Numbered from the stretch's first letter, positions 7,511-28,653 are shown. The stretch: DNA of 35,989 bases from Candidatus Woesearchaeota archaeon (GCA_964457815.1 CAYWFA010000001.1:1-35989); one strand, 5' to 3'. The notes: generated by a model not told the origin, from the letters alone. Numbers and translations are program-made.

Positions 7511-8473
7511 TTATACTCCAGGGCCAACTGTGGCTCCAAATATGATATTACCTTGACAAGTACCTGCAACCCCCAAGGGAACATAAATTCTCCAATAAGT
7601 AGTATTAATTGCCTCATTAAAAGTGTCGTTTTGTCTGTATTCAAGATTAAATACTTTGACCACTGGAGCAGAAGTTAAATTAGTGTAATTTGCAATAAAT
7701 TGAGATAAATCCAAAACTCCGGGATTGCTGTTTGTTAAATTATATTTTTCGTGTTCAATAGAAATGTTTTTTATTGCACCTAATGTACAATTCATTGCAT
7801 TTCCGTCTTCAAGTGCAAACCCATATCCACTTAAAGACAAATTAATTTTAACATTTCCATAATTGGTTACATTAGAAATGTTTTCAAGAGATACTTCTGT
7901 TGCATTAACAGTGCCGTAATCTATGTAATCGGGAAGCCCCAATCCAAGTAAACTAGAAACTGTAATATTATCATTTCCATAGCCCAATTTATTATAAGAA
8001 TCATTAACAGTGATTAAACAATTCCAATTTCCAGGGTTTGCATAATACCAAACATCAAAAGTACAATTAATCCAATTGGTGTATGTTCCTTCTTGTGTTA
8101 TAGTACAAGAGGAATTAGTGTAATGAAGATTATTATCATCTGCTGCTCCAGAAGTTGAATTAGCAAAATCAAAAAATACTGCTGAAGCATGATCAACATC
8201 GACCCAACCATTATAATCTGTTACAAGTCCAGAACAAAAAACAAACTTTGTAGAATTGGGTATTAAAGCTAAAGTGGAATCATTATTTTGTATGGTTACA
8301 TTAGAAAGTTCTGGGTATACATTGCCTACAGTCAAATTTGTAATTACAGTAACATTATGCTCTCCAACACCTGCAAAAACTCCTTTAGGAAAAAAAGAAA
8401 ACAAAATTATGAATAGAAAAACTTCTAGAAAAATAAAAAAAATAAGTGTTTTTTTTTGAAATTGTTTGTTCAT
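7511..8473 (-). CDS. Secreted Asn-rich beta-rich protein (320 aa from MNKQ; the track's longer N-terminus overlaps the upstream gene)
   Basis: The ATG at 8473-8471 lies 1 nt after the upstream stop (8475-8477). Sec-type signal MNKQFQKKTLIFFIFLEVFLFIILFSFFPKGVFA. Many N-x-S/T sequons and several Cys. No TM anchor. Confidence 0.75.
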   Translation of the reverse strand: MNKQFQKKTLIFFIFLEVFLFIILFSFFPKGVFAGVGEHNVTVITNLTVGNVYPELSNVTIQNNDSTLALIPNSTKFVFCSGLVTDYNGWVDVDHASAVFFDFANSTSGAADDNNLHYTNSSCTITQEGTYTNWINCTFDVWYYANPGNWNCLITVNDSYNKLGYGNDNITVSSLLGLGLPDYIDYGTVNATEVSLENISNVTNYGNVKINLSLSGYGFALEDGNAMNCTLGAIKNISIEHEKYNLTNSNPGVLDLSQFIANYTNLTSAPVVKVFNLEYRQNDTFNEAINTTYWRIYVPLGVAGTCQGNIIFGATVGPGV

Positions 8474-8474
8474 T

Positions 8475-9218
8475 TTAATCCAACTCCACATACAAATAAT
8501 AAGCTGTTGCACCTGTGAAACCTTGAGAACCGTTTTCAGGAACCAACATTTGGAAATCGTAAGTTTGCCCATCATAACCTGCCAAATTGTCTTCTAAGAT
8601 TGTAGCATATATTATGCTAGTTCCATCATACAAAGCCATTTCTTCGAAATCATCATCTTGGGGATTATCATTTGTGTAAGTGTTTAAAGTTGGACATGCA
8701 TTTGCTCCAATGTTTGTGATTGCAACGGGAAAAGCATCGTGTGTACTAGGATAAGAGAAAGTTGCAGTTATATTGTCTGAAGTTCTATTATGAAACATTG
8801 CAGCATTTTCTGCCTCTAAATTAGTTGTTATATTTGCACATTCAATGGAAGACCATTCAATTGTATTGGAATCTCTTGTAGAATAAACTCTTCCTGTGGT
8901 TACACTTAAACTCCAATCATAAATTGTTGAACCTGCAGAATCATCCAAGGTAAATGCTCCATTTACCCATCCTACAAATGCTTTCCAATGAGTGTTTTGA
9001 ACGGAAGTGGTTAAATTTAAAGCAGCTATATATCCTCCTGAAATATTGAAGAATCCAGCAGAAGAGGTATTTTTAGTTTCATTCCAAACAGAATCCAAAT
9101 CATCTATTCCGCTCGGGTCTGCAGATAAAAAAACGTTTGAAAATAAAAAAACGGATAATAAAAATATCCCCGTTATCAAAATTCCAAATATAAGGTTATT
9201 TTTCTCATTTTTAAACAT
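8475..9218 (-). CDS. Secreted protein, divergent member (D) of the SW-G-YFG/YDFEMLV/FWVELE family
   Basis: 247 aa with a signal peptide. HWKAFVGWVNGAFTLDDSAGSTIYDWSL...GRVYST...EWSSIEC...FEEMALYDGTSIIYATILEDNLAGYDGQTYDFQMLVPENG...AYYLYVELD is collinear with paralogs A-C. Confidence 0.8.
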   Translation of the reverse strand: MFKNEKNNLIFGILITGIFLLSVFLFSNVFLSADPSGIDDLDSVWNETKNTSSAGFFNISGGYIAALNLTTSVQNTHWKAFVGWVNGAFTLDDSAGSTIYDWSLSVTTGRVYSTRDSNTIEWSSIECANITTNLEAENAAMFHNRTSDNITATFSYPSTHDAFPVAITNIGANACPTLNTYTNDNPQDDDFEEMALYDGTSIIYATILEDNLAGYDGQTYDFQMLVPENGSQGFTGATAYYLYVELD

Positions 9219-9300
9219 GTTTTTGTTTTTTTAATTTTCCTCCTTGTTCATTTTACTATTGGTTTTTCTTCTAAAAATTGTAAAAAATAAAAATAAAAAT

Positions 9301-10059
9301 TTATTCTAATTCTACCCAGAAGAAATAGGTAGTTGTAGCTGTATCTGTTAAGTGTCCGTTTTCCAATACAAGCATCTCGAAATCATGGGCTCTTCCATCA
9401 AATCCTAATGGACTTTCTTCATCTAAGATAGATGTGAAAATTACACTTGATGTTGAAGTTTCATACAATAAAACTTCTTGGAAGGTGCTGTCTGTAGCAT
9501 TTTGATTTGCTGCAAATATATGTGTACTTGCACAAGCTCCTGCTGCAAATTCTCTGTTGTTTGTATAAAACAAATCATGCACAAGACCAAAACCATTTTC
9601 ATGAGTTCCATCAGTTGAGAATGTTTCATTCACTCCATCAACATCATCATAAGCAATTCCAAACTCTGCTTCTAAGTCTTCGAAATAAGTTCCTTTTTCA
9701 TCTTCAAGGCATTTAACTGCACTCCAATTCAAGGAACCGTTTGTAGAAGCGTAAATTTCACCCTCTGGTGAAGCTAGAGACCAATTGTACATTACATTAT
9801 CTGCATTATCAGCCAACATAATTGTACCTGTAACATTACCAAAATAACCTTGCCAAGACTGAGTTATTGAATAACCAGAAATTGCAAGTTCAGTTACGTT
9901 TCCTGCAATAGCAGTGGTATTTCCTGCAGCACTAGCGTTCATCCTTGAACTTGTTAGATTAACTACATTTGCTCCGAAGGGTTCAACTGCTGAAACCAAT
10001 GCAAACAAAAAGATGCTTAAAACTATTGTTAATAGGAACAATCTATTTAATTTATTCAT
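9301..10059 (-). CDS. Secreted protein, paralog A of the SW-G-YFG/YDFEMLV/FWVELE family
   Basis: 252 aa. Sec signal ...FALVSA/VEPFG. Invariant core GYSITQSWQGYFGNVTGTIMLADNADNVMYNWSLASPEGEIYAS. C-terminus HDFEMLVLENGHLTDTATTTYFFWVELE. GGAGGG lies upstream of the ATG. Confidence 0.85.
   Translation of the reverse strand: MNKLNRLFLLTIVLSIFLFALVSAVEPFGANVVNLTSSRMNASAAGNTTAIAGNVTELAISGYSITQSWQGYFGNVTGTIMLADNADNVMYNWSLASPEGEIYASTNGSLNWSAVKCLEDEKGTYFEDLEAEFGIAYDDVDGVNETFSTDGTHENGFGLVHDLFYTNNREFAAGACASTHIFAANQNATDSTFQEVLLYETSTSSVIFTSILDEESPLGFDGRAHDFEMLVLENGHLTDTATTTYFFWVELE
9749..9914 (-). repeat. Conserved DNA segment R-A, shared with 20969-21134 and 22535-22663
   Basis: Hand alignment to 20969-21134 gives 155/166 identical bases, including most third-codon positions. 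Confidence 0.85.
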
Positions 10060-10227: not shown

Positions 10228-13200
10228 TTAAAATATTTCTACGTAAAAAACTGCGCTTTTTGAATCTTGTGCATTATATTCTCTTAATCTTGCTGGAACC
10301 CTTAATTCATAATCATAAATTCCGTATGTTCCTTGTTCATGTTTGTTGATCGGAGAAACAAAAACTAAATCTTCTTTGTCTGCTAAATCGAATTCTCCCT
10401 CTGTTCCATTTGTATCGTCTGAAAAATCCCAAAGTATTCCTGTTACAAAATTGGAATTGTTTGTTGAATTAATTATCGGAACATTTTGTATTAAGCTTTT
10501 AAACGAATAAATATCTTGAGAATATTTTGGAACTCCAGAATTTGTATAAACGTTGTAAACAGAATCTTCAAAAGAACTGGTATTTAATGCTAAATCAATT
10601 TCTGAAAAATCTGAATTGCTGTTTGAATTAATTTTGTTTTTTCCTATAGCTTGTAAACTTGTCCAAGAAACATAAGAATCATAATCTGCAACGTAGATAT
10701 TTCCTTGATTGAAATTTTCTGTACTCCAGTTAATTAATTTGGTTGAATCATTGTTTGCTAGAACTAGATTACTTGAAGTTAAAACATCTCCATAAAAGAA
10801 ATGCCATGAACCCACATTAATCGTTTTTGAAGCCTTGTTGTTGGATTCATTTAATTCTATATAGCTTCCATTTGTTGTTAAAGGAGGATCAACTACAACA
10901 AAAACTTCTGAAGAACCTATTGAAGCAATTAATTCTTGAGAAACATTTCTCTCGCTGAATTTAGAAAGATTAATGAAAATGTCTTCTCCAATCTTTTCTC
11001 CTCCTGAATCTGGATCTCCTTTGTAAAAATTAACTGTAACATTTGAAATATCTGCTCCTGCAAGATTACGTATTGTTGCAGTTATTTCTATTAACTGATT
11101 TTCTTTAGGAGAACTTTCATTTAAAAATATTTCAGAAGAATTAACTGAAAAATCCGGATAAGTTAAATTAAATGTTCTTAACTCGCTTATGTTTGTATTT
11201 TTCATTTGATCCCAACAAGTTACATTCCACCAATGCTCTCCCTGTCCTAAAATAGAGGTAAGAACGTATTCTCTTTTTGATATATTGCTTGAAACCCAAA
11301 CGTTGGGTCTTCTAACTATTCCATCTACTGTTAAATTACATTGCAAAACTGTATCTAATGTATCTATTGCTGTCCAGTTGAAATAAACTCTGTCTTCGTT
11401 GAAATCAATTCCAGATTCATTTTCAGGAGAATTAAGAATTATTGAAGGAGGGGAAAAATCCATTGAAAAATATTTTGAGGTTGCATTTGCACTAGAAGGA
11501 ACAGGATTATTTGTATCATAACATTCAACTGTCCAATTATGTAACCCTTCTGGAATTCCTGAGATTGTGAAATTTGGATTTATTATTAATTCTGCAGAAG
11601 ATTTAGATTCATTCGAAACTTCATCTATATACAAGGTACAATTGTTTATTATCTGTGCATCTTCTGCAAGATAATGAAATGTTACTGCACTTCCAAAACC
11701 ATAAAAATCGTCATCTGGTGTGTAAAGAGTTATTTGTGGGGGGGCATATACTGTGAAATTTCTTGTTTCACTTGTATTGGAATTTTCGGCAGAGTCTGCA
11801 CATTCAATTGTCCAATTGTAATCTCCATCATCTAACAAATAAGGATATATTTCTGGAGTTGAATTCTCTGCAATAACTTGATCATAAAAAATATTATTGA
11901 TGAAAACATTACAAGAGATATTTTCATTTAAATTGTCTTCCACTGTGAAATTAAATAAAACTTCATTCCAATCTAATGTTTCGTTTGGTTCGGGTGAATT
12001 AAGGACAATTTTTGGAGCTTCTATGTCGATGTACAAGGTTCTATTTTCATCACTACCTATTACCCCTAAAGAATCCGCACAATAAACATTCCAAGTATGA
12101 TTTCCTTGAGAAAGAATTTCCGTGAAATAATTTGAATTATCATTAATTATTGGTGTTGAATTAACTTTTACAAATTCGTTGTCTATATACAAAGAACAAT
12201 TAACTATATCCTCTTCATATTTGTAAGCATAATATTCAAATTCAACTTCTGTGTAATTAAGCCAAGAATCTGGTTCCGGAGAAATCAAAATAACATCTGG
12301 GGGAGCAAAGGTAGTGAATTTTCTTGTTTCACTAATATTTAAATTTCCTGAATAGTCTGAACAAGAAACATTCCAATAATGCTCTCCAGAAATAAATGAT
12401 CTTGAAATCAAATTTGTAGAGCCATTCTCTGCAATTATAGAAGTAATATTTCCATCAACCGTGAAATTACAAGTTAAATTTTGTGCTAAGTTATCAGTTG
12501 CGGTGAAATTAAATGTTATCTGAGAAGAATAAATTATATCCTCGTCTCCAGGATAAAATAAGTTTACTTGGGGAGTAGAATTGTCTTTATAAAAAAACCT
12601 TGTTTCCGAATTATTTTCTAATCCATAGGTATCAAAACAATTGATTGTCCAATTGTAAAAACCATCGGATAAATCGTTTATAGAAAAGTTGGTTTGTTGG
12701 TTGTTTAAAGGAGAATAAGTTATATTTTCAAAGGAGCCATTTATATAAATTGAACAATTTGATAAATTGGTATTGTCTGAAGGGAGATATTCCAATAAGA
12801 CTTGGTCTTTAAACCAGTATACGTCTTCTGTAATCAAAGAAATTTCAGGAAGTTCTCTTATTGTTATTTCCCTGTTTTCACTTATGCCATAACGTCCTGC
12901 AGAATCAATACAACTTACATTCCAAACTTTTAAACCATCTGTTAAATCTGTAATTAATATGCTTGTATTTGCATTATTACTTGCAAGCAAATTATTTTCT
13001 GATTTTTCTCCGATACTTAAATTGCAATTTAATTCTGAATCAAGATTATCAGTTACATTGAAATAAAAATTCAAAGAAGAAAATTGAGAAGTTGTTGAAG
13101 TTTCTGGATGTAAAAGATAAACAACAGGATTTTGTGTATCTACATAGAAACGTCTTGTATTCGCAATAACGCTATATTCCCCTGTGTCGGTTATATTGAC

Positions 13201-16200
13201 TGTCCAATTATAAAATCCATCTGGGAGAGTGAGTGTAAAATTATTGTATGCTTTATTTATAATTTGAGATTGATTGGACTGGTTGTATGTACCATTTAAA
13301 TATAAGTCTGCAATTGTTAAGTTGTTGTTGTCTGAAGCGTTATAAATTAAACTTATTGTTGATTCATTGAACCACCAAAAATCTGGAGTTATCAAAAATA
13401 TTTCTGGAGGAACATCATTTATATTGAAATGAAAAGTTTCGCTTGTATATGATCTTAAAGAAGAATCAAAACAAGTTACGTTCCAATAATGAGTCCCAAC
13501 TGTTAAATATCCTGAATTACGACTTACATTTGTTGCGTTTTCAACAATAATTCCAGGATAAATAATTTCACCATCCAAAACAATATCACATGTAAGATTT
13601 AATGCCATATTGTCAGTTGCATTAAATTCTAAATCAAGATTGTTTACAAGATTGTTTGCTCCGTCTTCAGGATAAATGAGATTTACAAAAGGATTTTCTA
13701 AATCAACATAAAATATTCTTGTTTCATTTGAAGCGGCTTCTAAACTAGTTGTGTCTGTTACATTCACACTCCAATTATAAATTCCTTGCCCAAGAGAAAC
13801 TGTAAAATTGTTTATAACATTATTTATTATTGACGATTGATTTGTTTGATTTAAATTTCCATTCAATATCAGTGTTGAATTTGCAAGATTATCGTTTATA
13901 TCTGAAACATTATAATAAAGAATTACTTGAGAAGAATTAAACCAACTTAGATTTATTGGAGAAGTTAAATTTACGTTTGGAGGTGTTGCTCCTGCAGAAG
14001 TAACTGTTATAGGAGTTGTAGTTGTACCGTTATAACTGTCATATGTTCCTACAGCAATACATCTAATGTTGTTGTCTGAAGAAAAAGTGTTACCTTCTAT
14101 TGTAAATGTTGTGTTTTGAGAGATATTTGTTACATTTCCTAAATAATGGGGATTTGTTTCTCCCGAATCTAAAACAATATTGCCTGAAGAGCCAATATTT
14201 TGCCATCCAGAAGTGGAAGTATTTCTTTGAATATAAACATTAACATTTCTACATGTTCCAGAAGAGCAATTGACTTGACAAACTGCATCGAATGTATCTT
14301 CTTGAGCAACATAGGGGTCTGTTAAAGGAGAAACCAAATCAGCATGTAAAAATCCTTCAGTGGTTAAGTTAACAATAACATAAGAATTTGTTCCGGAATC
14401 CCAAGAATGGGTCAAAGTTTTTTGGCTGGTATGTGTGTTGTATGCGTTGACAACTAATTTCAATCTATCACTCGGTCCAAGATAAATATCTTGATTTATA
14501 CATGTTGAATTTGTACCTGATGCAGCATTTTCAAATATTCCGCTATTTGCATCATTCCCTAATTGACAAATTAAAGTGTCTCCACTTGAGCCAGAAACAT
14601 AAAGTTTCCAAGTTATTGCTATTTTCCCTGTAGGAGTTGAAGAAGAAAAGGTTCCTGAAAAACTAATGGGGCTTCCGGAAGGAATAACCGCTCCATTATA
14701 ACCCATATACTGGGAAGTCGCACTAACAACATTTACTAATTGTCCTGCGCCAATATCAAATACTACAGAGTTTGAGGTTGCATCTTGGCTGCTTTTCAGT
14801 TTTATTTCTGCTAAAGTGTTTCTTGAAGGATTAAAATTAGAACTTTCATATAATGTTCCTGTAAATAATTCTGGAGTTATTGAAACATTTATTGTTTTAT
14901 TCTCACTGAAACCCGTTCTTCCCCCTTCATCTGTACAAGAAACATACCAAGAATAAACTCCATTATCTAAAAATTCGTTGAATGTTAAATTTATATCTTT
15001 TGTTATAGATGTTTCTGTTTTTTTTAATTGATTATTGATATATAAAGAACAATTTTCAACTGAAGAAGCATCAGAAACATTATATATAAAATACAAGTTA
15101 CTATCATCTGTAATTGTTGAAGAATTTGAAGGATAAACAAGATTAACTGAGGGAGATTCCAAGTCAAAAGAAAAAGTATAATTTGAAGTTCCAAAGAAAC
15201 ACCCATTAGAATTGTCGCAACATTGCACATTCCAGATATAATTTCCGGAAGAAGTATAAGTTTTATTTATGAAATTAAAAGTATTGTTAACTATTGAAGA
15301 TTGATTTGTTGAATTCATATGCCATAACCCCGTAGAATTATCCCACAAACTACAATTCAAAAAAGTTGCAGAAGAAATAGGGGTAAAATTAAAAACAACA
15401 TCTTGGGAATAAAGTATATCTGTGTCTAAAGGAGATCTTAAAAGAACTTCAAATGCTCCTGCTTCATAAATGCTATAACTAATTCTTAAATAACCTGCAG
15501 CCCCTGGACCTCCATTTCTTGAACCTCCAGAAGAAGTTTTAATTGCCCCAGAACCTCCACCTCCATAATTATTACCAGAATTTCCTGCCCCTGTAGTTGT
15601 TCTTCCTGCTCCTCCATCTCCCCCTAATTCAGACGTTCCTGTTCCTGCAGTTCCTCCAGTTGCATTTCCTCCAATCCCTGTTGAACCTGCACCTCCACCA
15701 CCTGCACCGGAATAGCCTCCTGATTGGGTCCCCCCTTTTCCTCCCATATAAATTATGTCCCCTATAGAATTTGCAACACTTCCTCCTTCTCCTCCTGTTC
15801 CTGCACTTAAACCTCCACTTCCCCCTGCAGCATATAATTCGGAACCATCATCAAAATATGTAGGATTTCCTGTTGCCCCATTCCCTGTTCCACCTGCAAC
15901 TCCTGAAGCTACAGCAACTGTATAATTTTCATAGGGGCTAACTGAAAAAGTTTTTTTAACATAAGCTCCTCCTCCACCTCCTCCTGCTCTTCCACTGCCT
16001 CCTCCTGGACGTCCTCCACCAGCACCCCCTCCACCCCAGGCTTCAACAGTAATTTCATAAACTCCTGCTGGAACCATCCAAGTTGTGCTTGAAGAAAAAT
16101 TTACAAGATAATATGTATAAGGATCAACAATATAATCAAATTCAACACTTCCCCCTACAACTTTTAAATCAAAGGTATCCTGAGGGTTTTGTAAATTTGT

Positions 16201-19311: not shown

Positions 19312-19345
19312 AGAAAATGAAAATTAACTGAGTATAAAAGATTTT

Positions 19346-21273: not shown

Positions 21274-21892
21274 TTTGTTTACCTCCTTTCATCTCTATAA
21301 TTTTTTTTAAAAAAACAGGATTTTGGTAAATTGGAAAAAGAGAAGAAAAAGAAATATTATTTATTTCATTTAAAGAATAAAATTCAAGCTTAACACTGTT
21401 CTCTTGCTTTTTAGAAATATTTTCTATTGTTTGTTGGATTTTTTTATCTTCCAAAAATATGATTAAAGAAGAATTTGATTTTTTTATATCCGCAAAAATT
21501 GCATATATGCTCTTAAAGTTGTCTTTAACCTTATAAATAAACTCCTCTAGAAAGAATTGTGAAGATTTATTCTCCAAGAGCCAAATTTTAAAGATTGATT
21601 TTTGATAATCTTCTAAATCTAGATTTTTTTTCTCTCCAAAACCATTGGTAAGTAAAATTGAATAACAAATATCTTTTGAAATTGAAAAGAGATTCCTTGG
21701 TTTTCCTTTTTCAAAAGCACCCGTCTTTTCCTTGGAAACAATTTGAGCTGCTTCAAGCAATTTTAACTGCTGACTGATAAATGAAACTGTTGTTTTTGTT
21801 TTTTCTGCAATCTCAATTGGGGAGGAAGGCTTCTCCGAGATAATTTTGAGAATTTCCCACCTCGGAGATGCCAGAAAAGAATCAAGTTCCAT
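21257..21892 (-). CDS. ArsR-like winged-helix transcriptional regulator with C-terminal extension
   Basis: 211 aa. SPRWEILKIISEKPSSPIEIAEKTKTTVSFISQQLKLLEAAQIVSKEKTG...PRNLFSI is a typical ArsR/SmtB-type HTH. Its 3' end overlaps the paralog B start by 17 nt. Confidence 0.75.
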   Translation of the reverse strand: MELDSFLASPRWEILKIISEKPSSPIEIAEKTKTTVSFISQQLKLLEAAQIVSKEKTGAFEKGKPRNLFSISKDICYSILLTNGFGEKKNLDLEDYQKSIFKIWLLENKSSQFFLEEFIYKVKDNFKSIYAIFADIKKSNSSLIIFLEDKKIQQTIENISKKQENSVKLEFYSLNEINNISFSSLFPIYQNPVFLKKIIEMKGGKQNEKNN

Positions 21893-22062: not shown

Positions 22063-22851
22063 TTATTCTAATTCAATCCAAAAGTAATAAGTTGTTGTTT
22101 CCGTATCTGTTAAATGCCCGTTTTCAAGAACAAGCATTTCAAAATCATGGGGATTGTTATCAAAACCAAAAACATTTTCATTTAACAAAGAGGTAAATAT
22201 GATACTACGTGTAGTTGGTTCATATAAAAGAACTTCTTCAAATTTATTGTCTTCGCCTTGTCCAGAATTGGTGAAAACTTGAGTGTTTCTACATTCTCCT
22301 TCTGAAAAATTAAGATTATTTGTATAAAATGTATTATGGCCTGAACCTAAAAGGGTGAAGGTTTCGTTTACTCCATCCACATCATCATCAGCAATTCCAA
22401 ACATTGCTTCCAAAATTGTTAAATTGGTTCCATGTTGATTTGTATCTCCGGGAGTTTCTGCTCCAATGTAAGTTCCATCTGCGTCAAAATTAAAACATTG
22501 AACATCTGCCCAAGAAATTGAGTCATTTGTAGAAGCATAGATTTCACCCTCTGGTGAAGCCAGAGACCAATTGTACATAACATTATCTGAATTATCTGCC
22601 AACATAATTGTACCTGTAACATTACCAAAATAACCTTGCCAAGACTGGGTTATCGAATAACCAAATATACTTAGCTCCGTAACATTTCCCGCCAAAGCTG
22701 GAATACCTGTTGCGTCATCTGAATCTGCCCTGCTAGAGGATAAATTAACAACATTTGCTCCAAAGGGTTCAATTGCTAAAACCAAGGAAATGTTCAATAA
22801 AAATATTAGCACAGCAACGAAAAGTATTACTTGTTTCATCCTCTTTACCAT
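22063..22851 (-). CDS. Secreted protein, paralog C of the SW-G-YFG/YDFEMLV/FWVELE family
   Basis: The track ORF starts at a TTG (22866). The first ATGs are at 22851 (MVKRMKQ...) and 22839. Signal ...ISLVLA/IEPFG. Core GYSITQSWQGYFGNVTGTIMLADNSDNVMYNWSLASPEGEIYAS. C-terminus HDFEMLVLENGHLTDTETTTYYFWIELE. Confidence 0.85.
   Translation of the reverse strand: MVKRMKQVILFVAVLIFLLNISLVLAIEPFGANVVNLSSSRADSDDATGIPALAGNVTELSIFGYSITQSWQGYFGNVTGTIMLADNSDNVMYNWSLASPEGEIYASTNDSISWADVQCFNFDADGTYIGAETPGDTNQHGTNLTILEAMFGIADDDVDGVNETFTLLGSGHNTFYTNNLNFSEGECRNTQVFTNSGQGEDNKFEEVLLYEPTTRSIIFTSLLNENVFGFDNNPHDFEMLVLENGHLTDTETTTYYFWIELE
22535..22663 (-). repeat. Conserved DNA segment R-C
   Basis: Positions 22541-22663 are 121/123 identical to 20975-21097. 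Similarity drops sharply outside this segment. Confidence 0.85.
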
Positions 22852-22895
22852 CGATAAAATAAACAAAAAGAGCTTTATAATTCTTTCTTTTTTAA

Positions 22896-23765
22896 TTAAT
22901 TTATTTCTCCTAATAGAGTTTTAAGTCTTTCAATGTCCCTTGATAAAGGGCTCTTTTTCTGTATTTCTTTTAAAGCTTCTGTGTATTTTTGAACTTTGTC
23001 TAAAACTTTATCCAACTCTTCTTTTTCCGCAAAATTCAAGATCTTTGTTTTTAAATTATCTACGTCTTTTGAGTTTTGTTCTATATTTGCCTTAGATTCT
23101 TGAAGCTGAGAATTAAAAGTATCTAAATCTTGTATTTTCTTTCTCATTTCGCTGTAAATTGTTTGGACTTTATCTGTTTGGATATTGATTGTTCCTTCTA
23201 TCTTTTTTATTCCAATGAGTTCTTTTTTTATTTCTTCGCTAAGTTTAATTATTTCTTCTATTCCTCTGAAAAAGCTCATTTTACGCCGTGTTTCTTTTAG
23301 TTCTTCCATAACTTGGTCCAATATAGCTTCATTTCCTTCAAGATTTGCTTTGAGTGCTTCTATTTTAACGTTCTGCCTTTCTAAATCCATCATGAATTTA
23401 TCCGGTTTTATTGATTCTACCAAATCAATGGCTTTTATAGATTTCAGCTCCATTGTTTGAATTGTTCTATCTCTATCAAGAATCATTGATCTCAATTCTC
23501 CAATCTGTTCGCTTACCCTTGTAAATCTTTCTGTGAATGATTTCCTTACTTCTTGAAAAGCTTCTTGGCTTGCTTTCAACTTGTCTATTTCTGTAGATAA
23601 TTTAAGAATATTTTGGGAATCTGAAGAAACAGAAGAAACAATTGGTTTTTCTTCCTGAGGAGGTTTTGAAACTTGCTCTTTATTTTCTTCTATGTTTTCA
23701 CTACTTGGATCCGTTTCTTCTTGATTTTCACTTTCTTTTTTCTTTGATTTCAAAAAATCAAACAT
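22896..23765 (-). CDS. Coiled-coil protein with acidic low-complexity N-terminus
   Basis: 289 aa, ATG start. MFDFLKSKKKESENQEETDPSSENIEENKEQ, then about 230 aa of heptad-like K/E/L/I-rich sequence. No TM segment. Confidence 0.7.
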   Translation of the reverse strand: MFDFLKSKKKESENQEETDPSSENIEENKEQVSKPPQEEKPIVSSVSSDSQNILKLSTEIDKLKASQEAFQEVRKSFTERFTRVSEQIGELRSMILDRDRTIQTMELKSIKAIDLVESIKPDKFMMDLERQNVKIEALKANLEGNEAILDQVMEELKETRRKMSFFRGIEEIIKLSEEIKKELIGIKKIEGTINIQTDKVQTIYSEMRKKIQDLDTFNSQLQESKANIEQNSKDVDNLKTKILNFAEKEELDKVLDKVQKYTEALKEIQKKSPLSRDIERLKTLLGEIN

Positions 23766-24081
23766 TGGATATCTCCTCTTCTAGCTTATTTAACAAAGAA
23801 TCTATTTTTTTAAAATCTTTCTCATTGAAACCTGTACGTAATAAAAGTATCTTGGAATGAATTATATGGGATTTTGAAGAAAGTAACCTTTTAATCTTTT
23901 TTTCTTTTATTTTTTTTATTTTTAAATCTAAATTTAATTGTTTTAATTTTAACTCTGAAATAAGAGAATTTTGAAGAACGTCTAATCTTTCATTTTTATC
24001 TTTTATCTTGTTTATTTTTTTATGCTTTTTTTTATCAATAAACGAAGAAGATATCTTCTTTAACCTCTTTAATTTTTCCAT
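23758..24081 (-). CDS. Small Lys-rich coiled-coil protein
   Basis: 107 aa, ATG start. Its 3' end overlaps the start of the next gene by 8 nt. Lies immediately downstream of the 1120-aa ATPase gene. Confidence 0.55.
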   Translation of the reverse strand: MEKLKRLKKISSSFIDKKKHKKINKIKDKNERLDVLQNSLISELKLKQLNLDLKIKKIKEKKIKRLLSSKSHIIHSKILLLRTGFNEKDFKKIDSLLNKLEEEISNV

Positions 24082-24148: not shown

Positions 24149-27100
24149 TTACTCTTTCTTCTTTTTTTTCTGTTCTTCTTTTTCATAAATCTCTCTAGCT
24201 TTTTTTGCTTCTTCAACAGATTTTTCTATTTCTGAAGCATCCAATAATTTCTTTTCAACCTTTTTTGGTTTTTTTCCTATCTTTTCCCATTGCTTTTGTA
24301 ATCTCGGTCCAAGTCCTTCAACATAAATATCCACAACAGAGAAATTTCCAGTCATAAGTTTATCTTTTATTAGTTTAAGTTCCATCTTGAAATCAAAAAT
24401 GTCTATCTTTTCTTTTTCAAGCTGATTTACTTGATTCTCAAAATCATCTATTATATCATTGTATTTATTGTATTTTTCCAGCTCTTCATCTGAAAGCCTT
24501 CTTGTATTGTGAAGGATTGGCCTGAAATTTACAAAATAAGGTTTACCTTTATTGTATTCTGCATTTTGAAACATTGCAACTCCAACTTCTGCTCTAACTA
24601 AAGATTTCAAAAATTCTTCTCCGTATTTTGTTTTTATTCTTTCTAAATCAGATTCTTCTATTGTTCTTGTTTGAATTTCAGTATTAATGTTTGCTTTAAC
24701 TTCTCCAACAAAATCGCTTAATACCTGTGAAATTAAAACTACTCCCATTCCCCATTTTCTAAACTCTCTACAAGCTCTTTCAATTTGCAAGAAACCTTCA
24801 CCACTTCCACCAAATTTTGAAAGAAGTCTATGAACTTCATCGAAAACAAGTAGGACCTTAAGTTCTTGGGCTTCTTTTGGATCTGATTTAAATATTTGTC
24901 TAATTACACTTGCAATAAAAGTGTCAATATCCTTGGGATCAAGTTTATTTAGTGCGAATATTTGTATCTGTCCTGGATGAATATATTTTTCTATTTCAAT
25001 TATTTCTCTCGCATGTGAAATTTGCCTTATATTTCCGGGGAAAGCTCTGGAATCAGAAGGTTTTAATCCAAACTTAGGATAAAAAGACATCATTTTTTTA
25101 TCTTCGCATTTTCTCAATAACCCAGACCATTGTGCTGTTGGATCAAAAACAATAACTGCTACGTTTTTTAATAAGGCTTCTTCAACCAATACTTGTGCAG
25201 AAATACTTTTACCCATACCTGTAGCTCCTGCAACGATTGCGTGGGTTTTTAATTTCTCTGGTTCAAGATAAACAGGATATTTTGATTCAGCAATTAATCC
25301 TAATTTAAAAAAACTTTTGTTTGCCTTTGGAAGAGTAGATAAATCCAAAGAAATCCCATATCTTTTTCTTTTTTCTTTGTATCTTTTATAAAGAAAAACA
25401 TTAAGTAAAATGAAACTTATGAAAGAAAGTATTGCAAAGAAAATCCAAAGAGGTATCCCTAGAAAAGAATAAAGATAAAGAGGTTTACGCACTGAAAAAG
25501 GTGCTGTGGCACTGGAAGAAAATCCTAAATATTTTGCATTCACAACAAACAAATAATCTCCTTCAGAAAAATTTGAAGGAATATTAATGTAATCAACTAT
25601 TGACAAAGCTTTTTTTATTTCAACTTCTTGGATTTCTCTGAAAGAAACTGTTGAATCTTTCTCATTAATGATTAATTTTTCCAATAAAACTTTGTATTCC
25701 TGATCAATCAACAAATTTTGTAAATTAAGTTTATAATTCAAATTTTCTCCTGGGTTAACAATGTTTTTAAACAAATCTATTTCCATCAAAAGGGTTTCTA
25801 TTGGCAATCTGTTTTCAATTATTTTTATTTTTATGGGGATTTCTTTTTCTACATCTCCTGTTAATTTTAAAATACCTTCATAAGTGCCTACTGGCTTTGT
25901 TCCATAAAAAGTTATTTTTATTTCTTCCCCATTTCCAGGTTCCAATATAAGAGCGTCTCTATCTAATTTTACAAAATCTGTTAATTCTGGAGAAAGAGAT
26001 AAAAGAAGATTAATGTTTGAAAGTTTAAAATTGTAAATACCTATTGTATCTTCAACAAAAGTGTTTTGTCTTATTTCTTTGAAAATATCTTTTGTGCTTA
26101 TCCAAAAATCTTCTCCCGATTTTTGTAATTCTTCGATAATTTGTTTGACATCTTCTCCGGGCTCTTCATCATATGGGCCGGTTTCATAAGGATTGTTTGT
26201 TGATCCCAAGTTCATTAAAGTTAAAGTTATATTGTGGCTTAAAAAAGTGGTATTTTGATAAAAAGTGAGGAGATCATAATAATTATTATATCCCAAAAGA
26301 GTTGCTATTATAGGATATTGTTGAGGAATAATTTCTGGTGTTAATTCGTAATATCCTAATTCATTGCTTGTGGTGGAATCTCCTGCAATGTAAACACTAA
26401 CTGAATCTAATGGATTTCCCAAGGAATCTTTAACATATCCTGAAACAAGAGGAAAAATCACCTCTTCTGTGCTAGGAGTAACTGTTTGCAAAGTAATATT
26501 GTGGTTTATTGTGTTGTTTGTGAAATTAACGGTTATATTTGAAAAATAGCTATCATATCCTTCACCATATGCAATTAGATTGTGTGTTCCGGGCATTAAA
26601 TTTAAAGAAATGTTGTAAAATCCATTTATGTCTGTGGTTGCATTTGTACCCGCAACAACCACTGTGATGTTTTCTATAGGAGAATTGCTTGAATTTACAA
26701 CATATCCGTAAATATTTGTGTTTATAACCTCTCCCATCCCTCCTGCGGGACATTCGTCATAGGGATCTGTGAAAAAGTAATACCTTATATTTGAAGATGG
26801 AAGCATAGGCAAAATCATTTGAAAATTAACTGTTGTATTTGGACTGTAACCTTTTTGTAACTCTTCAATATGTGTTACATAAACTAAATTTCCTCCTCCA
26901 TCAACCAAAATTCCCAAATCAAATATCCCGTAATTTCCATCCCATCTGTAAGTGTGTGTAGAGGGGATATTTGTGATATTTCTTGTTCCCACCATCACCC
27001 ACATTGTATCATAAAAAGTGTTTGAAGCACAATCTACCCCTGAAGAACACCCTGTCCAAGAATCAATCTGGACAGCAGTGGCAGGAATTAATGAATCAAA

Positions 27101-27511
27101 ATCAATTGTTGAAGAAGTGGAAGCATAAACTTCCTTTCCCCCTATTGCATCCTGTTGGATACAATTAAAAAACAAACCGGTTGTTGAAATTTCTCCAGAA
27201 TTAACATCTTCAAATAAAAGCTCTGTGTATCCTGGAACTCTTAAAGCCAAGCCATACAATCCATGCCAATAAGAGGTTTGAAATTTAATTGTTACGTTTA
27301 ATTCAGAAATATATCCTGCTTGTGAAGGAACATAAGTTAAGAAACCTGTGGAAAGAATGTTTGTTATAAACAAAACACAAATTACAAATGTCGAAAATAA
27401 AGCAAATGCGAGCAATAAAAACTCAAAAGTATCTTCTTTCTTTTTTTGACGTAATTCTCTTCTTGCAATGGCAATTGCTTTTTTAGAAACTCTTTCACCT
27501 TTCTTATGCAT
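24149..27511 (-). CDS. Two-TM membrane protein: extracellular paralog-like domain, two CarboxypepD_reg-like and further beta-sandwich domains, and a cytoplasmic HerA/FtsK-superfamily (DUF87-like) ATPase
   Basis: 1120 aa. Basic N-terminus, TM1 (aa 29-53), ectodomain of about 625 aa, TM2 (aa about 678-708, LYLYSFLGIPLWIFFAILSFISFILLNVFLY). Walker A AGATGMGKS (25205-25231), Walker B LLVFDEVHRL, and REFRKWGMGVVLISQVLSDFVGEVKANINTEIQTRT. K/E-rich coiled-coil tail. TDINGFYN and SNELGYYEL mark the CarboxypepD_reg-like repeats. Confidence 0.9.
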   Translation of the reverse strand: MHKKGERVSKKAIAIARRELRQKKKEDTFEFLLLAFALFSTFVICVLFITNILSTGFLTYVPSQAGYISELNVTIKFQTSYWHGLYGLALRVPGYTELLFEDVNSGEISTTGLFFNCIQQDAIGGKEVYASTSSTIDFDSLIPATAVQIDSWTGCSSGVDCASNTFYDTMWVMVGTRNITNIPSTHTYRWDGNYGIFDLGILVDGGGNLVYVTHIEELQKGYSPNTTVNFQMILPMLPSSNIRYYFFTDPYDECPAGGMGEVINTNIYGYVVNSSNSPIENITVVVAGTNATTDINGFYNISLNLMPGTHNLIAYGEGYDSYFSNITVNFTNNTINHNITLQTVTPSTEEVIFPLVSGYVKDSLGNPLDSVSVYIAGDSTTSNELGYYELTPEIIPQQYPIIATLLGYNNYYDLLTFYQNTTFLSHNITLTLMNLGSTNNPYETGPYDEEPGEDVKQIIEELQKSGEDFWISTKDIFKEIRQNTFVEDTIGIYNFKLSNINLLLSLSPELTDFVKLDRDALILEPGNGEEIKITFYGTKPVGTYEGILKLTGDVEKEIPIKIKIIENRLPIETLLMEIDLFKNIVNPGENLNYKLNLQNLLIDQEYKVLLEKLIINEKDSTVSFREIQEVEIKKALSIVDYINIPSNFSEGDYLFVVNAKYLGFSSSATAPFSVRKPLYLYSFLGIPLWIFFAILSFISFILLNVFLYKRYKEKRKRYGISLDLSTLPKANKSFFKLGLIAESKYPVYLEPEKLKTHAIVAGATGMGKSISAQVLVEEALLKNVAVIVFDPTAQWSGLLRKCEDKKMMSFYPKFGLKPSDSRAFPGNIRQISHAREIIEIEKYIHPGQIQIFALNKLDPKDIDTFIASVIRQIFKSDPKEAQELKVLLVFDEVHRLLSKFGGSGEGFLQIERACREFRKWGMGVVLISQVLSDFVGEVKANINTEIQTRTIEESDLERIKTKYGEEFLKSLVRAEVGVAMFQNAEYNKGKPYFVNFRPILHNTRRLSDEELEKYNKYNDIIDDFENQVNQLEKEKIDIFDFKMELKLIKDKLMTGNFSVVDIYVEGLGPRLQKQWEKIGKKPKKVEKKLLDASEIEKSVEEAKKAREIYEKEEQKKKKKE
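26765..27322 (-). other. Ectodomain segment (aa about 64-249) of the ATPase protein, homologous to the small secreted paralogs
   Basis: AGYISELNVTIKFQTSYWHGLYG ... GGKEVYASTSSTIDFDSL ... NLVYVTHIEELQKGYSPNTTVNFQMILPMLPSSNIRYYFFTD is collinear with AGNVTELAISGYSITQSWQGYFG ... EGEIYASTNGSLNWSAV ... SVIFTSILDEESPLGFDGRAHDFEMLVLENG...TTYFFWVE. Confidence 0.6.
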
Positions 27512-28652: not shown

Positions 28653-28653
28653 A

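What the first reader, a model, noticed from the sequence alone, without database searches (positions are those of the whole stretch)
7511..27511. 20-kb same-strand cluster that looks like an undescribed surface filament or translocation system
All 13 called genes from 7511 to 27511 (14 counting the doubtful 51-aa ORF at 7337-7492) are on the minus strand with short gaps or overlaps. In transcription order they are listed below.
- the membrane-anchored HerA-like ATPase with a large ectodomain
- two coiled-coil proteins
- secreted paralog C
- the ArsR-like regulator
- secreted paralog B
- the polytopic HExxH membrane protein
- the 457-aa secreted protein
- the small wHTH protein
- the 2457-aa giant adhesin-like protein
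- secreted paralogs A and D
- the 320-aa secreted protein

No known pilus, archaellum or secretion machinery is present: no PilB/FlaI-type ATPase, prepilin peptidase, sortase or archaeosortase. All signal peptides look Sec-type, not class III. A motor, a candidate processing protease, multiple small subunits, a giant adhesin and embedded regulators together are what a dedicated surface appendage or cell-cell contact apparatus would need. Such an apparatus could mediate host attachment or DNA/nutrient transfer in an episymbiotic archaeon. The functional reading is hypothesis only.
Basis: inference. Interest (0 to 1): 0.9.

Follow-up and report, generated by a model that had tools for sequence, protein, structure and literature searches.

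The report
Undescribed DPANN motor-anchored surface assembly
A conserved gene cluster of tiny symbiotic (DPANN) archaea encodes a membrane motor, small secreted proteins and a giant adhesin-like protein that all share one previously unknown building block. This looks like an undescribed cell-surface machine and is a concrete candidate for how these cells hold on to, or exchange material with, their hosts.

Summary
Thirteen genes (14 with a 51-aa ORF) lie head-to-tail on the minus strand from 7337/7511 to 27511, with the predicted features.

- The gene order recurs in about 50 species-level Woese-, Pace- and Nanoarchaeota MAGs, down to 28% identity.
- No component falls into a known pilus, secretion, defence or viral system.

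The main new result is that the "paralog" β-domain is not confined to the four small secreted proteins. It has over 1000 relatives, no Pfam family and no PDB or viral fold match. It also forms the first extracellular domain of the HerA-family ATPase (hhalign 97%, E 1e-11; present in 92 of 93 family members) and the C-terminal domain of the 2457-aa giant protein (96%, E 6.5e-9).

The core proteins are about as conserved as ribosomal proteins, while S457 and usually the giant diverge faster. The HExxH protein is a sub-threshold M50/site-2-protease-like enzyme.

Best reading: a motor-anchored, glycosylated surface stalk or fibre tipped by a variable adhesin. Filament formation and translocation remain inferred. 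The conserved unit probably extends to about 31.3 kb, and transcription is probably in several units.

The parts
24149..27511 (-). Membrane HerA/FtsK-superfamily ATPase, 1120 aa. Layout: basic cytoplasmic N-terminus, TM1, ~620-aa extracellular region of five beta-sandwich domains, TM2, P-loop ATPase, C-terminal helical tail.
   Evidence: Pfam DUF87 45.2 bits (cut-off 23.2), HerA_C 38.5 (cut-off 22), CarboxypepD_reg 58.6. TM segments 27-61 and 677-709. AF2 model pLDDT 76.5 with this domain order. Walker A 761-769 and Walker B 889-894 invariant. Sequons concentrated in the ectodomain.
26768..27340 (-). Paralog-like beta-domain of the ATPase (aa ~58-248). It is the first extracellular domain, joined to TM1 by a conserved but model-disordered linker (aa 56-76).
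   Evidence: hhalign against the paralog family: probability 97.4%, E 1.1e-11, 177 columns. Present in 92 of 93 ATPase-family proteins. A distant ortholog's ectodomain hits the pD HMM at 2.4e-13. pLDDT 85-93.
24512..25309 (-). Cytoplasmic P-loop ATPase domain (aa ~735-1000).
   Evidence: Best solved relatives by profile are HerA 4d2i (7.5e-8) and other HerA hexamers. Best NCBIfam hits are CedD 1.8e-9, HerA, TraD and TraC, all far below cut-offs.
23758..24081 (-). CC1: small basic helical or coiled-coil cytoplasmic protein, 107 aa.
   Evidence: No TM or signal peptide. Found in 21 loci directly after the ATPase. CC1-like ORFs follow the most divergent ATPases.
22896..23765 (-). CC2: cytoplasmic coiled-coil protein, 289 aa. 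The most conserved partner of the ATPase.
   Evidence: Only generic coiled-coil hits. 497 relatives, none with a Pfam domain. 78-90% identity in close genomes. E 1e-67 and 1e-71 next to the most divergent ATPases.
22063..22866 (-). Secreted paralog C: Sec-type signal peptide, conserved tail motif (IEPFGANV), beta-domain.
   Evidence: E 1e-129 to the family HMM. 9 sequons. Oligo-T run directly downstream.
21257..21892 (-). ArsR-family wHTH regulator with a ~140-aa C-terminal extension of unknown function.
   Evidence: HTH_5 27.6 bits against a cut-off of 22. Found in 33 loci, nearly always between two paralog genes.
20572..21273 (-). Secreted paralog B.
   Evidence: E 4e-92. Overlaps the ArsR stop by 17 nt. 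GC-rich hairpin-like sequence plus T-runs downstream.
19346..20446 (-). Polytopic membrane protein: an N-terminal ~7-TM region plus a C-terminal M50/site-2-protease-like domain. Conserved features are HExGH, a GFN...D motif and two conserved Cys.
   Evidence: H238, E239, G241, H242, C252, C270, G312, F313 and D321 are at least 90% conserved down to 28% identity. Orthologs hit Peptidase_M50, M50B and DUF3267 just below threshold, best 26.7 against 27.1. Top PDB profile hits are S2P MJ0392 (E 0.026) and SpoIVFB.
17938..19311 (-). S457: secreted 457-aa protein of unknown fold and the fastest-evolving component.
   Evidence: Signal peptide. No family hits. 36-64% identity where the ATPase is 66-85%.
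17598..17837 (-). Small basic protein, 79 aa, possible wHTH. It overlaps the start of the giant gene by 4 nt.
   Evidence: Weak HTH_12 hit, E 0.012. Conserved immediately upstream of the giant gene in 12 loci. 63-86% identity.
10228..17601 (-). Giant secreted protein (2457 aa from the ATG) with Ig-like, CARDB-like and Gly-rich domains, 110 sequons and no C-terminal membrane anchor.
   Evidence: Big_13, Gly_rich_2, Big_7 and Big_3_3. Sequons and TM. C-terminus lacks a TM or sorting signal. Giant-like ORF upstream of 31 of 33 paralog-pD-S320 triplets.
10231..10815 (-). C-terminal paralog-like domain of the giant protein (last ~195 aa). It lacks the paralogs' N-terminal tail and first strand.
   Evidence: hmmsearch i-E 1.1e-4. 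hhalign probability 95.8%, E 6.5e-9, 173 columns. Starts directly after a CARDB-like 'E.NESNN' domain end.
9301..10059 (-). Secreted paralog A: signal peptide 1-23, conserved tail 24-53, beta-domain 54-252.
   Evidence: AF2 pLDDT 77.8, beta-rich, residues 30-51 disordered. Tail motif information 3.3 bits against 3.2-3.6 for the core. Over 1000 relatives.
8475..9218 (-). Secreted paralog D, a divergent subfamily that always follows another paralog.
   Evidence: 31% identity to A. Family HMM E 2e-68. Part of the paralog-pD-S320 triplet in 36 places.
7511..8473 (-). S320: secreted, Cys-containing protein with 5.9 sequons per 100 aa. Constant third member of the triplet, with no detectable homology to the paralogs.
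   Evidence: Found in 50 loci. hhalign probability 3% against the paralogs.
7337..7492 (-). 51-aa hydrophobic ORF, a possible small membrane protein.
   Evidence: Conserved after S320 in 11 loci of closer relatives, so probably a real gene.
27620..29632 (+). Divergently transcribed conserved partners. u249 is an acidic coiled-coil protein, u101 has an N-terminal TM and an 8-Cys domain, and u202 and u160 are Lys-rich helical proteins.
   Evidence: They co-occur with the ATPase in 8-13 loci. In distant loci L044 and L062, u249 and u101 (plus u202 in L044) lie on the same strand directly upstream of the ATPase.
29629..31302 (-). d557: signal peptide, ~490-aa ectodomain and a C-terminal TM anchor. 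Probable additional component.
   Evidence: As conserved as the ATPase at 60-86% identity. Adjacent to cluster genes in rearranged distant loci L034 and L081.
31337..35857 (-). d1506: second giant Ig-like, sequon-rich protein, possibly truncated at the window edge. Its C-terminus is not paralog-like.
   Evidence: Big_13. 83 sequons. hhalign probability 0.1% against the paralogs. 879-nt internal tandem duplication.

Best explanation
This is a conserved cell-envelope assembly specific to DPANN archaea (Woese-, Pace- and Nanoarchaeota).

**Proposed mechanism.** A hexameric-type HerA/FtsK-superfamily ATPase sits in the membrane. Its motor and coiled-coil tail face the cytoplasm, next to the coiled-coil partners CC1 and CC2 and probably u249 and u202. 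A stalk of five beta-sandwich domains faces outward. The first extracellular domain of that stalk, the four small Sec-secreted N-glycosylated proteins and the C-terminal domain of the anchor-less giant Ig-rich protein are all built from one and the same novel beta-domain.

I propose that these homologous modules bind each other, possibly by strand complementation using the conserved but monomer-disordered N-terminal tail. That would chain motor ectodomain, small subunits (stalk or fibre) and giant adhesin (tip) into one surface structure. An M50-like membrane protease would process or clear the subunits' N-terminal signal or TM segments. ArsR and a small HTH protein would regulate expression. 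ATP hydrolysis would be coupled either to translocation of a polymer (DNA is the family precedent) through the membrane ring, or to mechanical assembly and remodelling of the outer structure.

**Shown.** Gene content, topology, shared domain, co-conservation, strong purifying selection, and absence of known machinery.

**Inferred.** Module-module binding, filament formation, protease substrate, and what the ATPase moves.
For: - **Conserved order.** ATPase-CC1-CC2-paralog-ArsR-paralog-HExxH-S457-wH-giant-paralog-pD-S320 recurs across 51 assemblies.
- **Linkage counts.** 31 of 33 triplets lie behind a giant protein. 10 of 10 paralog-ArsR pairs have the ATPase upstream and 15 of 15 have the HExxH protein downstream.
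- **Shared domain.** ATPase ectodomain: probability 97.4%, E 1e-11. Giant C-terminus: 95.8%, E 6.5e-9, with matching motifs. Found in 92 of 93 ATPase relatives. Independently, a distant ATPase hits the pD HMM at 2.4e-13.
- **C-terminal appendage.** In the wider family the domain recurs at the extreme C-terminus of otherwise unrelated larger secreted proteins, with the tail motif retained at the junction.
- **No other anchor.** The giant has a signal peptide but no membrane anchor or sorting signal.
- **Tail.** It is as conserved as the core yet disordered in monomer models of both the paralog and the ATPase.
- **Topology.** Supported by the positive-inside rule and by sequon density.
- **Active motor.** Walker A and B motifs are invariant.
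- **Selection.** The core proteins are as conserved as r-proteins S9 and L13, while S457 and mostly the giant are faster.
- **Protease.** HExGH and a downstream Asp are conserved, with M50-clan near-threshold hits.
Against: - No direct evidence shows that the modules interact or polymerise. No multimer prediction was possible.
- The paralog model has only moderate confidence (pLDDT 78). It shows no fold similarity to any solved donor-strand filament subunit.
- Free paralogs were not detected within 10 kb of the most divergent ATPases, so they may be a lineage-specific elaboration.
- All exported components have Sec signals, so the ATPase is not needed for their export.
- No substrate-related genes (relaxase, nuclease, DNA-binding partners) lie in the cluster.
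- S320, S457 and d557 remain without any assignment.
Confidence: 0.5

Rival explanations
1. General envelope neighbourhood plus an unrelated DNA pump. The secreted glycoproteins and giant proteins would be S-layer or glycocalyx constituents. The membrane HerA/FtsK-like ATPase would work separately as an FtsK-like chromosome-segregation or division translocase, perhaps with the nearby Xer recombinase.
For: - A Xer-type recombinase (6432-7265; Phage_integrase 164 bits) lies directly downstream in the window and in close relatives.
- The core genes evolve as slowly as housekeeping genes.
- Archaea lack a canonical FtsK (established knowledge).
Against: - The ATPase carries the same extracellular module as the secreted proteins in 92 of 93 relatives.
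- ATPase-CC2-giant linkage persists where no Xer was called in the locus (L082, L083).
- Several more distant loci (L017-L019, L024) also lack a Xer match.
- A 620-aa glycosylated five-domain ectodomain is not expected for a division DNA pump.
Confidence: 0.15
2. Dedicated export or assembly ATPase. The motor would act as a protein translocase or assembly chaperone, analogous to the FtsK-like EssC of type VII secretion. It would export or fold the giant adhesin and subunits, with no role in DNA or nutrient transfer.
For: - FtsK/HerA-superfamily ATPases include protein translocases (established knowledge).
- Giant proteins are consistently linked to the ATPase.
- The ATPase has a two-TM topology with a cytoplasmic motor.
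Against: - All exported proteins carry ordinary Sec-type signal peptides.
- No WXG-like or signal-less substrates are present in the cluster.
- Pfam FtsK_SpoIIIE scores only 16.9 bits, below its cut-off of 24.
Confidence: 0.15
3. Ced-, Ted- or type-IV-secretion-like conjugative DNA-transfer system, or an integrated mobile element or provirus. The beta-domain proteins would then be capsid or pilus proteins.
For: - The nearest named ATPase families are CedD (1.8e-9) and the conjugation ATPases TraD and TraC.
- FtsK-like ATPases accompany jelly-roll capsid proteins in membrane-containing viruses (PMC4158269).
- A recombinase gene is adjacent.
Against: - All family scores are far below cut-offs: CedD 36.8 against 600, TraC 22.8 against 567.
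- No VirB2-, CedA1-, VirB6- or relaxase-like protein was detected.
- No relative of the paralogs occurs in 2.9 million viral contigs, and there is no BFVD fold match.
- The same chromosomal context next to S9, L13 and L18e recurs across many of the genomes sampled.
- Base composition is uniform and there are no att-like flanking repeats.
- The paralogs have Sec signals and dense sequons.
Confidence: 0.07
4. HerA-based anti-virus defence system.
For: PADLOC HerA and mad8 models hit the P-loop domain at 1e-13.
Against: - Only the generic ATPase domain matches.
- No Sir2, DUF4297, NurA or other effector partner is present, and none of the other cluster proteins scanned (HExxH, pA, S320, S457, CC2) hits any defence model.
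- The extracellular architecture and r-protein-like conservation are atypical for defence islands.
Confidence: 0.03

Closest known systems
FtsK-HerA superfamily membrane translocases of DNA-transfer systems: CedB/CedD of the crenarchaeal Ced DNA-import system, and the VirB4 and VirD4/TraD ATPases of type IV secretion
   Same: - P-loop ATPase of the HerA clade (DUF87 and HerA_C above threshold).
- CedD is the best NCBIfam hit.
- Membrane-anchored with a cytoplasmic motor.
- The N-terminal two-TM topology resembles coupling proteins.
- CedD is likewise TM + N-terminal domain + HerA-like ATPase and imports DNA (PMC11868833).
   Different: - Scores are far below family cut-offs.
- A ~620-aa five-domain glycosylated ectodomain lies between the TMs.
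- No VirB2-, CedA1-, VirB6- or CedA-like partners were found.
- The partners are novel secreted beta-domain proteins, coiled-coil proteins and a giant adhesin.
Archaeal Sec-dependent, donor-strand-complemented filaments: Sulfolobus threads (Saci_0406), TasA-like bundling pili and Pyrodictium cannulae
   Same: - Sec/SPI-type signal peptide.
- A strongly conserved short motif right after the cleavage site.
- An N-terminal tail on a beta-sandwich body.
- Heavy N-glycosylation and paralogous minor subunits encoded alongside (PMC9715654; window).
   Different: - No sequence or fold similarity to any of them.
- The thread paper describes no ATPase in its gene cluster (its only mention of an ATPase concerns type IV filament assembly), whereas here the subunit module is fused to an ATPase.
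- Donor-strand exchange is untested.
Tip-adhesin logic of chaperone-usher pili (FimH/PapG: receptor-binding part plus a pilin domain that lacks its own donor strand)
   Same: - The giant protein ends in a subunit-like domain that lacks the subunits' N-terminal tail and first strand.
- Many relatives carry the domain as a C-terminal appendage on variable N-terminal regions.
   Different: - No chaperone, usher or outer membrane.
- The resemblance is architectural only. This comparison comes from general knowledge and was not tested.
Site-2 proteases (Peptidase M50; MJ0392, SpoIVFB, RseP)
   Same: - HExGH in a TM helix plus a downstream conserved Asp-containing motif.
- The best Pfam and PDB matches are all M50-clan.
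- S2P enzymes cleave N-in TM or signal segments (general knowledge), which is the orientation of the paralogs' signal peptides.
   Different: - All scores are below gathering thresholds.
- There is an extra N-terminal ~7-TM region.
- No PDZ or CBS domains.
- Two conserved Cys in a loop.

Membership tests
FtsK-HerA superfamily (HerA clade) P-loop ATPase | Walker A and B motifs and a DUF87/HerA-type core scoring above curated thresholds | tested here: met
   DUF87 45.2 bits (cut-off 23.2) and HerA_C 38.5 (cut-off 22). Invariant GATGMGKS and VFDEVH. Best PDB profile hits are HerA hexamers.
HerA-NurA DNA-end-resection helicase | Equivalog-level similarity to HerA, and a NurA/Mre11/Rad50 neighbourhood | tested here: not met
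   NF040937 scores 33.9 bits against a cut-off of 800. No NurA, Mre11 or Rad50 domain in any window protein. The protein is membrane-embedded with an ectodomain.
Ced/Ted DNA-import system | CedB/CedD-type ATPase at family score, plus CedA (VirB6-like) and CedA1 (VirB2-like pilin) partners | tested here: not met
   CedD NF053655 scores 36.8 bits against a cut-off of 600. No Ced- or VirB-type hit for the polytopic or small proteins.
Type IV secretion or conjugation | VirB4/TraC or VirD4/TraD at family score, plus relaxase, VirB2 and VirB6 | tested here: not met
   TraC 22.8 against 567. TraD 26 against 366. TrwB_AAD_bind 16.9 against 20.5. No partner families detected.
Type IV filament superfamily (pili, archaellum) | PilB/FlaI ATPase, PilC/FlaJ platform, class III signal peptides and a prepilin peptidase | tested here: not met
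   None of these domains occurs in any window protein. No FlaFind-type motif in the secreted proteins. The rest of the genome could not be examined.
Donor-strand-complemented archaeal filaments (threads, TasA-like pili, cannulae) | Subunit fold related to solved subunits | tested here: not met
   Foldseek against the PDB gave no hit at E <= 0.001 and TM-scores <= 0.2. Sequence and profile searches against the PDB gave no significant match (two hits at E ~0.5) and none at all.
Donor-strand-complemented archaeal filaments (threads, TasA-like pili, cannulae) | Inter-subunit donor-strand insertion of the N-terminal tail | not testable with these tools
   Only monomer prediction was available. Indirect evidence: the tail is conserved (3.3 bits) but disordered in monomer models.
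Peptidase M50 (site-2 protease) | HExxH in a TM helix, a second metal-ligand Asp motif, and a score above the gathering threshold | tested here: inconclusive
   HExGH and GFN..D are conserved. The best scores are 24.4 (M50, cut-off 27.2) and 26.7 (DUF3267, cut-off 27.1). PDB S2P MJ0392 scores E 0.026.
ArsR/SmtB transcription regulators | HTH_5 domain above threshold | tested here: met
   27.6 bits against a cut-off of 22. The metal-binding motifs were not examined.
HerA-containing anti-phage defence systems | HerA plus a cognate effector (Sir2, DUF4297 and others) | tested here: not met
   Only HerA P-loop hits were found, with no effector hit among the scanned cluster proteins.
Integrated virus or mobile element | Presence in viral or mobile contexts, flanking att repeats, and atypical composition | tested here: not met
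   No relatives in IMG/VR. No BFVD fold match. No flanking direct repeats. Uniform GC. Fixed chromosomal context.

The most novel reading that the evidence does not exclude
The cluster encodes a previously unknown kind of archaeal cell-surface nanomachine. A membrane HerA-type hexameric translocase would be physically continuous with a glycoprotein stalk and a giant, fast-evolving adhesin, through a shared self-associating beta-module. Woese- and Pacearchaeota would use it to attach to host cells and to move DNA or other macromolecules across the contact in an ATP-dependent way. That would make it the missing attachment and transfer apparatus of a major DPANN lineage.
Probability: 0.25. Interest if true: 0.92.

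Novelty: categorically new. Interest (0 to 1): 0.82.

Why it matters
Woese- and Pacearchaeota are abundant, uncultured, genome-reduced archaea thought to live attached to hosts. Pacearchaeota in particular show strong physical attachment, and pili-like appendages have been imaged on ultrasmall cells of unknown genetic basis (PMC7906910).

No attachment or transfer machinery has been assigned to these lineages in the literature I could search. In the one DPANN co-culture studied by cryo-ET, the intercellular nanotubes came from the host and no genes were identified (PMC11329633).

This cluster supplies a defined, strongly conserved set of candidate genes:
- a motor
- a new module family with more than 1000 members
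- a giant adhesin
- an M50-like protease

It also makes a specific, testable architectural prediction: base, shaft and tip are linked by one module. Even if the translocation idea fails, a HerA-family ATPase fused to an extracellular module that it shares with secreted partners was not found in any curated library or paper searched here.

Tried and rejected
- **Fold search of the paralog model.** Nothing significant against the PDB or viral structures. The only pattern was weak type-II-cohesin-like beta-sandwich hits (E 0.5-3, TM <= 0.24), which I did not use.
- **Fold search of the full ATPase model.** It returned only generic Ig-array proteins (macroglobulins, RbmA, transglutaminase) and said nothing about the ATPase clade.
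- **S320, S457, d557 and the d1506 C-terminus as hidden paralog-family members.** Rejected by hhalign, probability below 4%.
- **The extra ~590-aa gene of distant loci as an equivalent of d557 or S457.** Rejected.
- **CC2 homolog search.** No recognisable domain, only automatic coiled-coil names.
- **CC1 and u160 as homologs.** Pairwise BLAST was not significant, although one distant ORF hits both HMMs. Left open.
- **The second HerA-like ATPase (1658-3673) as a recent duplicate of the motor.** Rejected. The two share only Walker A similarity.
- **Virus, mobile-element and defence readings.** Rejected.
- **Literature.** Searches for a prior description found none. A Pacearchaeota metaproteome paper gave no usable expression data.

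Full report
**1. What is in the sequence**

The window is low-GC (about 30%) archaeal DNA. It carries the ribosomal protein genes L18e, L13 and S9 at 4.5-5.7 kb. Its proteins match MAGs labelled Woesearchaeota, Pacearchaeota, Nanoarchaeota or Nanobdellota. The window itself is a public NCBI contig (P0121 is 100% identical, contig length 35989).

From 27511 down to 7337, every substantial ORF is on the minus strand with gaps of -17 to 170 nt.

- **ATPase (1120 aa).** It has a basic N-terminus, TM1 (27-61), a ~620-aa segment, TM2 (677-709) and a P-loop domain. That domain scores above Pfam thresholds for DUF87 and HerA_C, and Walker A and B are invariant across 35 homologs.
- **Topology.** It follows from the positive-inside rule and from the need for the ATPase to be cytoplasmic. 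Sequon density supports it: 2.3 per 100 aa in the ectodomain against 0.46 in the cytoplasmic parts. Window-wide the figures are 4.15 for secreted proteins and 0.55 for cytoplasmic ones.
- **AF2 model of the ATPase.** At pLDDT 76.5 it shows five beta-sandwich domains outside, the ATPase inside and a long helical C-terminal tail.
- **Signal peptides.** None of the secreted proteins has a class III (prepilin) motif.
- **Known machinery.** No window protein has a PilB/FlaI, PilC, prepilin-peptidase or sortase domain.

**2.

A scan of one genome per GTDB species with the paralog profile gave 157 confirmed stretches. The best 80 loci came from 51 assemblies. I labelled their six-frame ORFs with the window proteins.

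The order ATPase-CC1-CC2-paralog-ArsR-paralog-(pD/S320)-HExxH-S457-wH-giant-paralog-pD-S320 recurs again and again. HExxH orthologs go down to 28% identity. Counting only places with enough flanking DNA:

- 31 of 33 paralog-pD-S320 triplets sit directly behind a giant protein.
- 10 of 10 paralog-ArsR pairs have the ATPase within 5 kb upstream.
- 15 of 15 of those pairs have the HExxH protein downstream.
- 13 of 15 have a giant-like protein downstream.

The divergently transcribed genes upstream of the ATPase also belong to the neighbourhood. In distant loci L044 and L062, u249 and u101 (plus u202 in L044) sit on the same strand directly in front of the ATPase. d557 also reappears next to cluster genes in rearranged loci (L034, L081).

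Around the most divergent ATPases (40-47% identity), the ATPase is still followed by a CC1-like gene, CC2 (E 1e-67 and 1e-71) and a giant protein of 4002 or 5105 aa. No free paralog was detected within 10 kb there.

The deepest core is therefore ATPase + CC1-like + CC2 + giant. The full 13-gene set characterises the Woese/Pace subset represented here.

**3. The key new finding: one module in motor, subunits and giant**

An HMM of the paralog family picked up the ATPase just after TM1 and the C-terminus of the giant. I then ran profile-profile comparisons with profiles built from orthologs in the fetched loci.

| Region | Matches paralog residues | Probability | E-value |
|---|---|---|---|
| ATPase residues ~58-248 | 45-249 | 97.4% | 1.1e-11 |
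| Last ~195 residues of the giant | 66-251 | 95.8% | 6.5e-9 |

The motifs line up as follows:

| Paralogs | ATPase | Giant |
|---|---|---|
| TQSWQGYFG | TSYWHGLYG | VGSWHFFYG |
| GEIYAS | KEVYAS | GNIYVA |
| DFEMLVLE...YYFWVEL | NFQMILP...YYFFT | DYELRVP...FYVEI |

Further support:

- The module is present in 92 of 93 ATPase-family proteins. The exception is an unrelated bacterial protein.
- A distant ATPase ectodomain hits the pD-subfamily HMM at 2.4e-13.
- S320, S457, d557 and the d1506 C-terminus are not detectably related.

In an exhaustive search of 1.84 billion representatives, the domain has 1191 clusters at E <= 1e-3 and 354 at E <= 1e-30. Most are free proteins of 240-290 aa. A recurrent minority (343-1635 aa) carries the domain at the extreme C-terminus behind unrelated N-terminal regions, and the conserved tail motif is retained at the junction.

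The domain has no Pfam family and no PDB sequence match even at E <= 5. It has no significant fold match in the PDB or among predicted viral structures. The model confidence is moderate (pLDDT 77.8, pTM 0.69).

**4. Other components**

- **HExxH protein.** HExGH, two Cys and a downstream GFN...D motif are conserved at 90% or more. Orthologs score just under threshold for Peptidase_M50, M50B and DUF3267, the best being 26.7 bits against 27.1. The best PDB profile hits are site-2 proteases: MJ0392 at E 0.026, then SpoIVFB. It is best described as M50-like, with membership unproven.
- **ArsR.** A bona fide HTH_5 protein.
- **CC2.** A very conserved DPANN-only coiled-coil family of 497 relatives, none with a Pfam domain.
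- **ATPase motor.** It belongs to the HerA clade. The nearest named families are CedD (the DNA-import ATPase of Sulfolobales, PMC11868833), HerA, TraD and TraC. All score orders of magnitude below family cut-offs.
- **Anchors.** The giant has no C-terminal anchor or sorting signal. Only d557 has a C-terminal TM.

**5. Evolutionary behaviour**

Within the same genome pairs, the ATPase, CC2, pC, pA, wH and d557 are as conserved as ribosomal proteins S9 and L13. For the closest pair the figures are 85-90% against 82-88%.

S457 is always the most divergent at 36-64%. The giant is usually much more divergent at 41-55%, over the roughly half of its length that the loci cover. It also varies in length from 2457 to more than 5000 aa, although one pair reaches 75%.

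This pattern fits an indispensable core machine with a variable outward-facing part.

**6. How it most likely works**

*Shown:*
- A membrane HerA-type ATPase whose first extracellular domain is homologous to a family of small Sec-secreted glycoproteins and to the C-terminal domain of an anchor-less giant Ig-rich protein.
- All of these are encoded together, with cytoplasmic coiled-coil partners, an M50-like membrane protein and two regulators.

*Inferred:*
- The homologous modules associate with one another. That would tether the giant protein to the motor through the small subunits, giving a base-shaft-tip arrangement.
- The paralogs' N-terminal tail (A-x-EPFGANV...) is as conserved as the core, at 3.3 bits against 3.2-3.6. 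Yet it is disordered in the monomer model.
- The equivalent conserved linker in the ATPase is disordered too.
- The giant's module lacks both the tail and the first strand.

Solved donor-strand filaments show the same pattern, namely archaeal threads (PMC9715654) and, from general knowledge, the FimH-type tip adhesin. However, the fold is unrelated to those, and strand exchange could not be tested here.

The M50-like protein could cleave the N-in signal or TM segments. This is known S2P behaviour from general knowledge, and it is untested here.

The ATPase, by family precedent, threads a polymer through a hexameric ring. Whether that is DNA, a protein, or simply mechanical work on the ectodomain is unknown.

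Oligo-T runs directly follow each of pC, pB and pA, and TATA-like boxes lie about 30 nt before ArsR and pA. This suggests several transcription units, but the evidence is weak in AT-rich DNA.

**7. Rivals**

- **(a) Envelope genes plus an unrelated FtsK-like division pump working with the adjacent Xer.** Weakened by the shared module, and by persistence of the ATPase-CC2-giant linkage where Xer is absent.
- **(b) A dedicated protein-export or assembly ATPase.** Possible, but every exported protein has a Sec signal.
- **(c) A Ced- or T4SS-like system, or a mobile element or virus.** Membership tests fail. There are no relatives in viral contigs, the chromosomal context is fixed, composition is uniform and there are no att repeats.
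- **(d) A defence system.** Only generic P-loop hits.

**8. Novelty and verdict**

I found no description of this cluster, of the module family or of this ATPase architecture. I looked in the curated libraries (Pfam, NCBIfam, PADLOC, PDB, BFVD) and in the searchable literature. Public annotations read 'hypothetical protein' or 'DUF87 domain-containing protein'.

The parts list includes members of known superfamilies: a HerA-clade ATPase, Ig-like domains, an M50-like domain and ArsR. The system as a whole meets the defining features of none of the known filament, secretion, DNA-transfer or defence systems that I tested.

I therefore rate it as a new kind of system whose existence and architecture are well supported. 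Its function (attachment fibre and/or translocation apparatus) remains a hypothesis, held at roughly even odds for the structural part and lower for translocation.

Noticed in passing
window 1658-4132 (minus strand): A second, soluble HerA-like ATPase of 671 aa (DUF87; CedD-like at E 1.7e-16; C-terminal region that looks wHTH-like by eye), preceded by a 152-aa coiled-coil protein. The pair is syntenic in many related MAGs. It shares only Walker A similarity with the cluster's motor. A motor plus coiled-coil pairing therefore occurs twice in the window.
   Followed up: partly
proteins P0237, P0257, P0262, P0264, P0290 (relatives): Larger proteins that end in the paralog domain. Several of them (P0257, P0262, P0264, P0290) carry a near-threshold Nup98-type S59 autopeptidase-like domain (up to 27.5 bits against a cut-off of 28.4). 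P0262 also has an 'HF|T' site like the Nup98 autocleavage site, which hints at self-cleaving precursors.
   Followed up: partly
L044, L048, L050, L053, L055, L059, L060, L062, L066, L069, L071 (between CC2 and the first paralog): More distant clusters contain an extra ~590-aa gene: signal peptide, ~400-aa ectodomain, TM and ~170-aa cytoplasmic domain. It has no detectable counterpart in the window.
   Followed up: partly
window 6016-7265 (minus strand): A Xer-type tyrosine recombinase (Phage_integrase 164 bits) and a small zinc-ribbon protein with a 'Recombinase' domain lie directly downstream of the cluster. They are conserved there in closer relatives only.
   Followed up: partly
window 31337-35857 and 34031-35401: The second giant protein (d1506) starts at an ATG without a signal peptide, only 132 nt from the window edge, so it may be truncated or disrupted. 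It contains an 879-nt tandem duplication at 73-86% identity.
   Followed up: no
window 11196-14962: Diverged repeats spaced roughly 280-585 nt apart lie inside the giant gene (families D2, D11, D12). They may reflect repeated domains within the protein.
   Followed up: no
window 9219-9300, 20447-20571, 21893-22062: Each of the paralog genes pA, pB and pC is followed immediately by runs of T. After pB there is also a GC-rich inverted repeat (GGGCGCA...TGCCC). These look like archaeal terminators.
   Followed up: partly
window 19308-19640 (minus strand): A 110-aa ORF overlaps the 3' end of the HExxH gene in another frame. It is low-complexity and its few 'hits' in other loci coincide with the HExxH gene, so it is probably not a gene.
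   Followed up: partly
window 4248-4331 (+): tRNA-Leu (CAA) lies between the coiled-coil/HerA2 pair and the ribosomal protein genes. It is the only tRNA in the window.
   Followed up: no
L082 13957-15183; L083 8904-9688: Neighbours of the most divergent ATPases carry weak or faint DUF5752 (PF19027) hits. One of them also matches the CC1 profile. The small helical partners may belong to that uncharacterised Pfam family.
   Followed up: no
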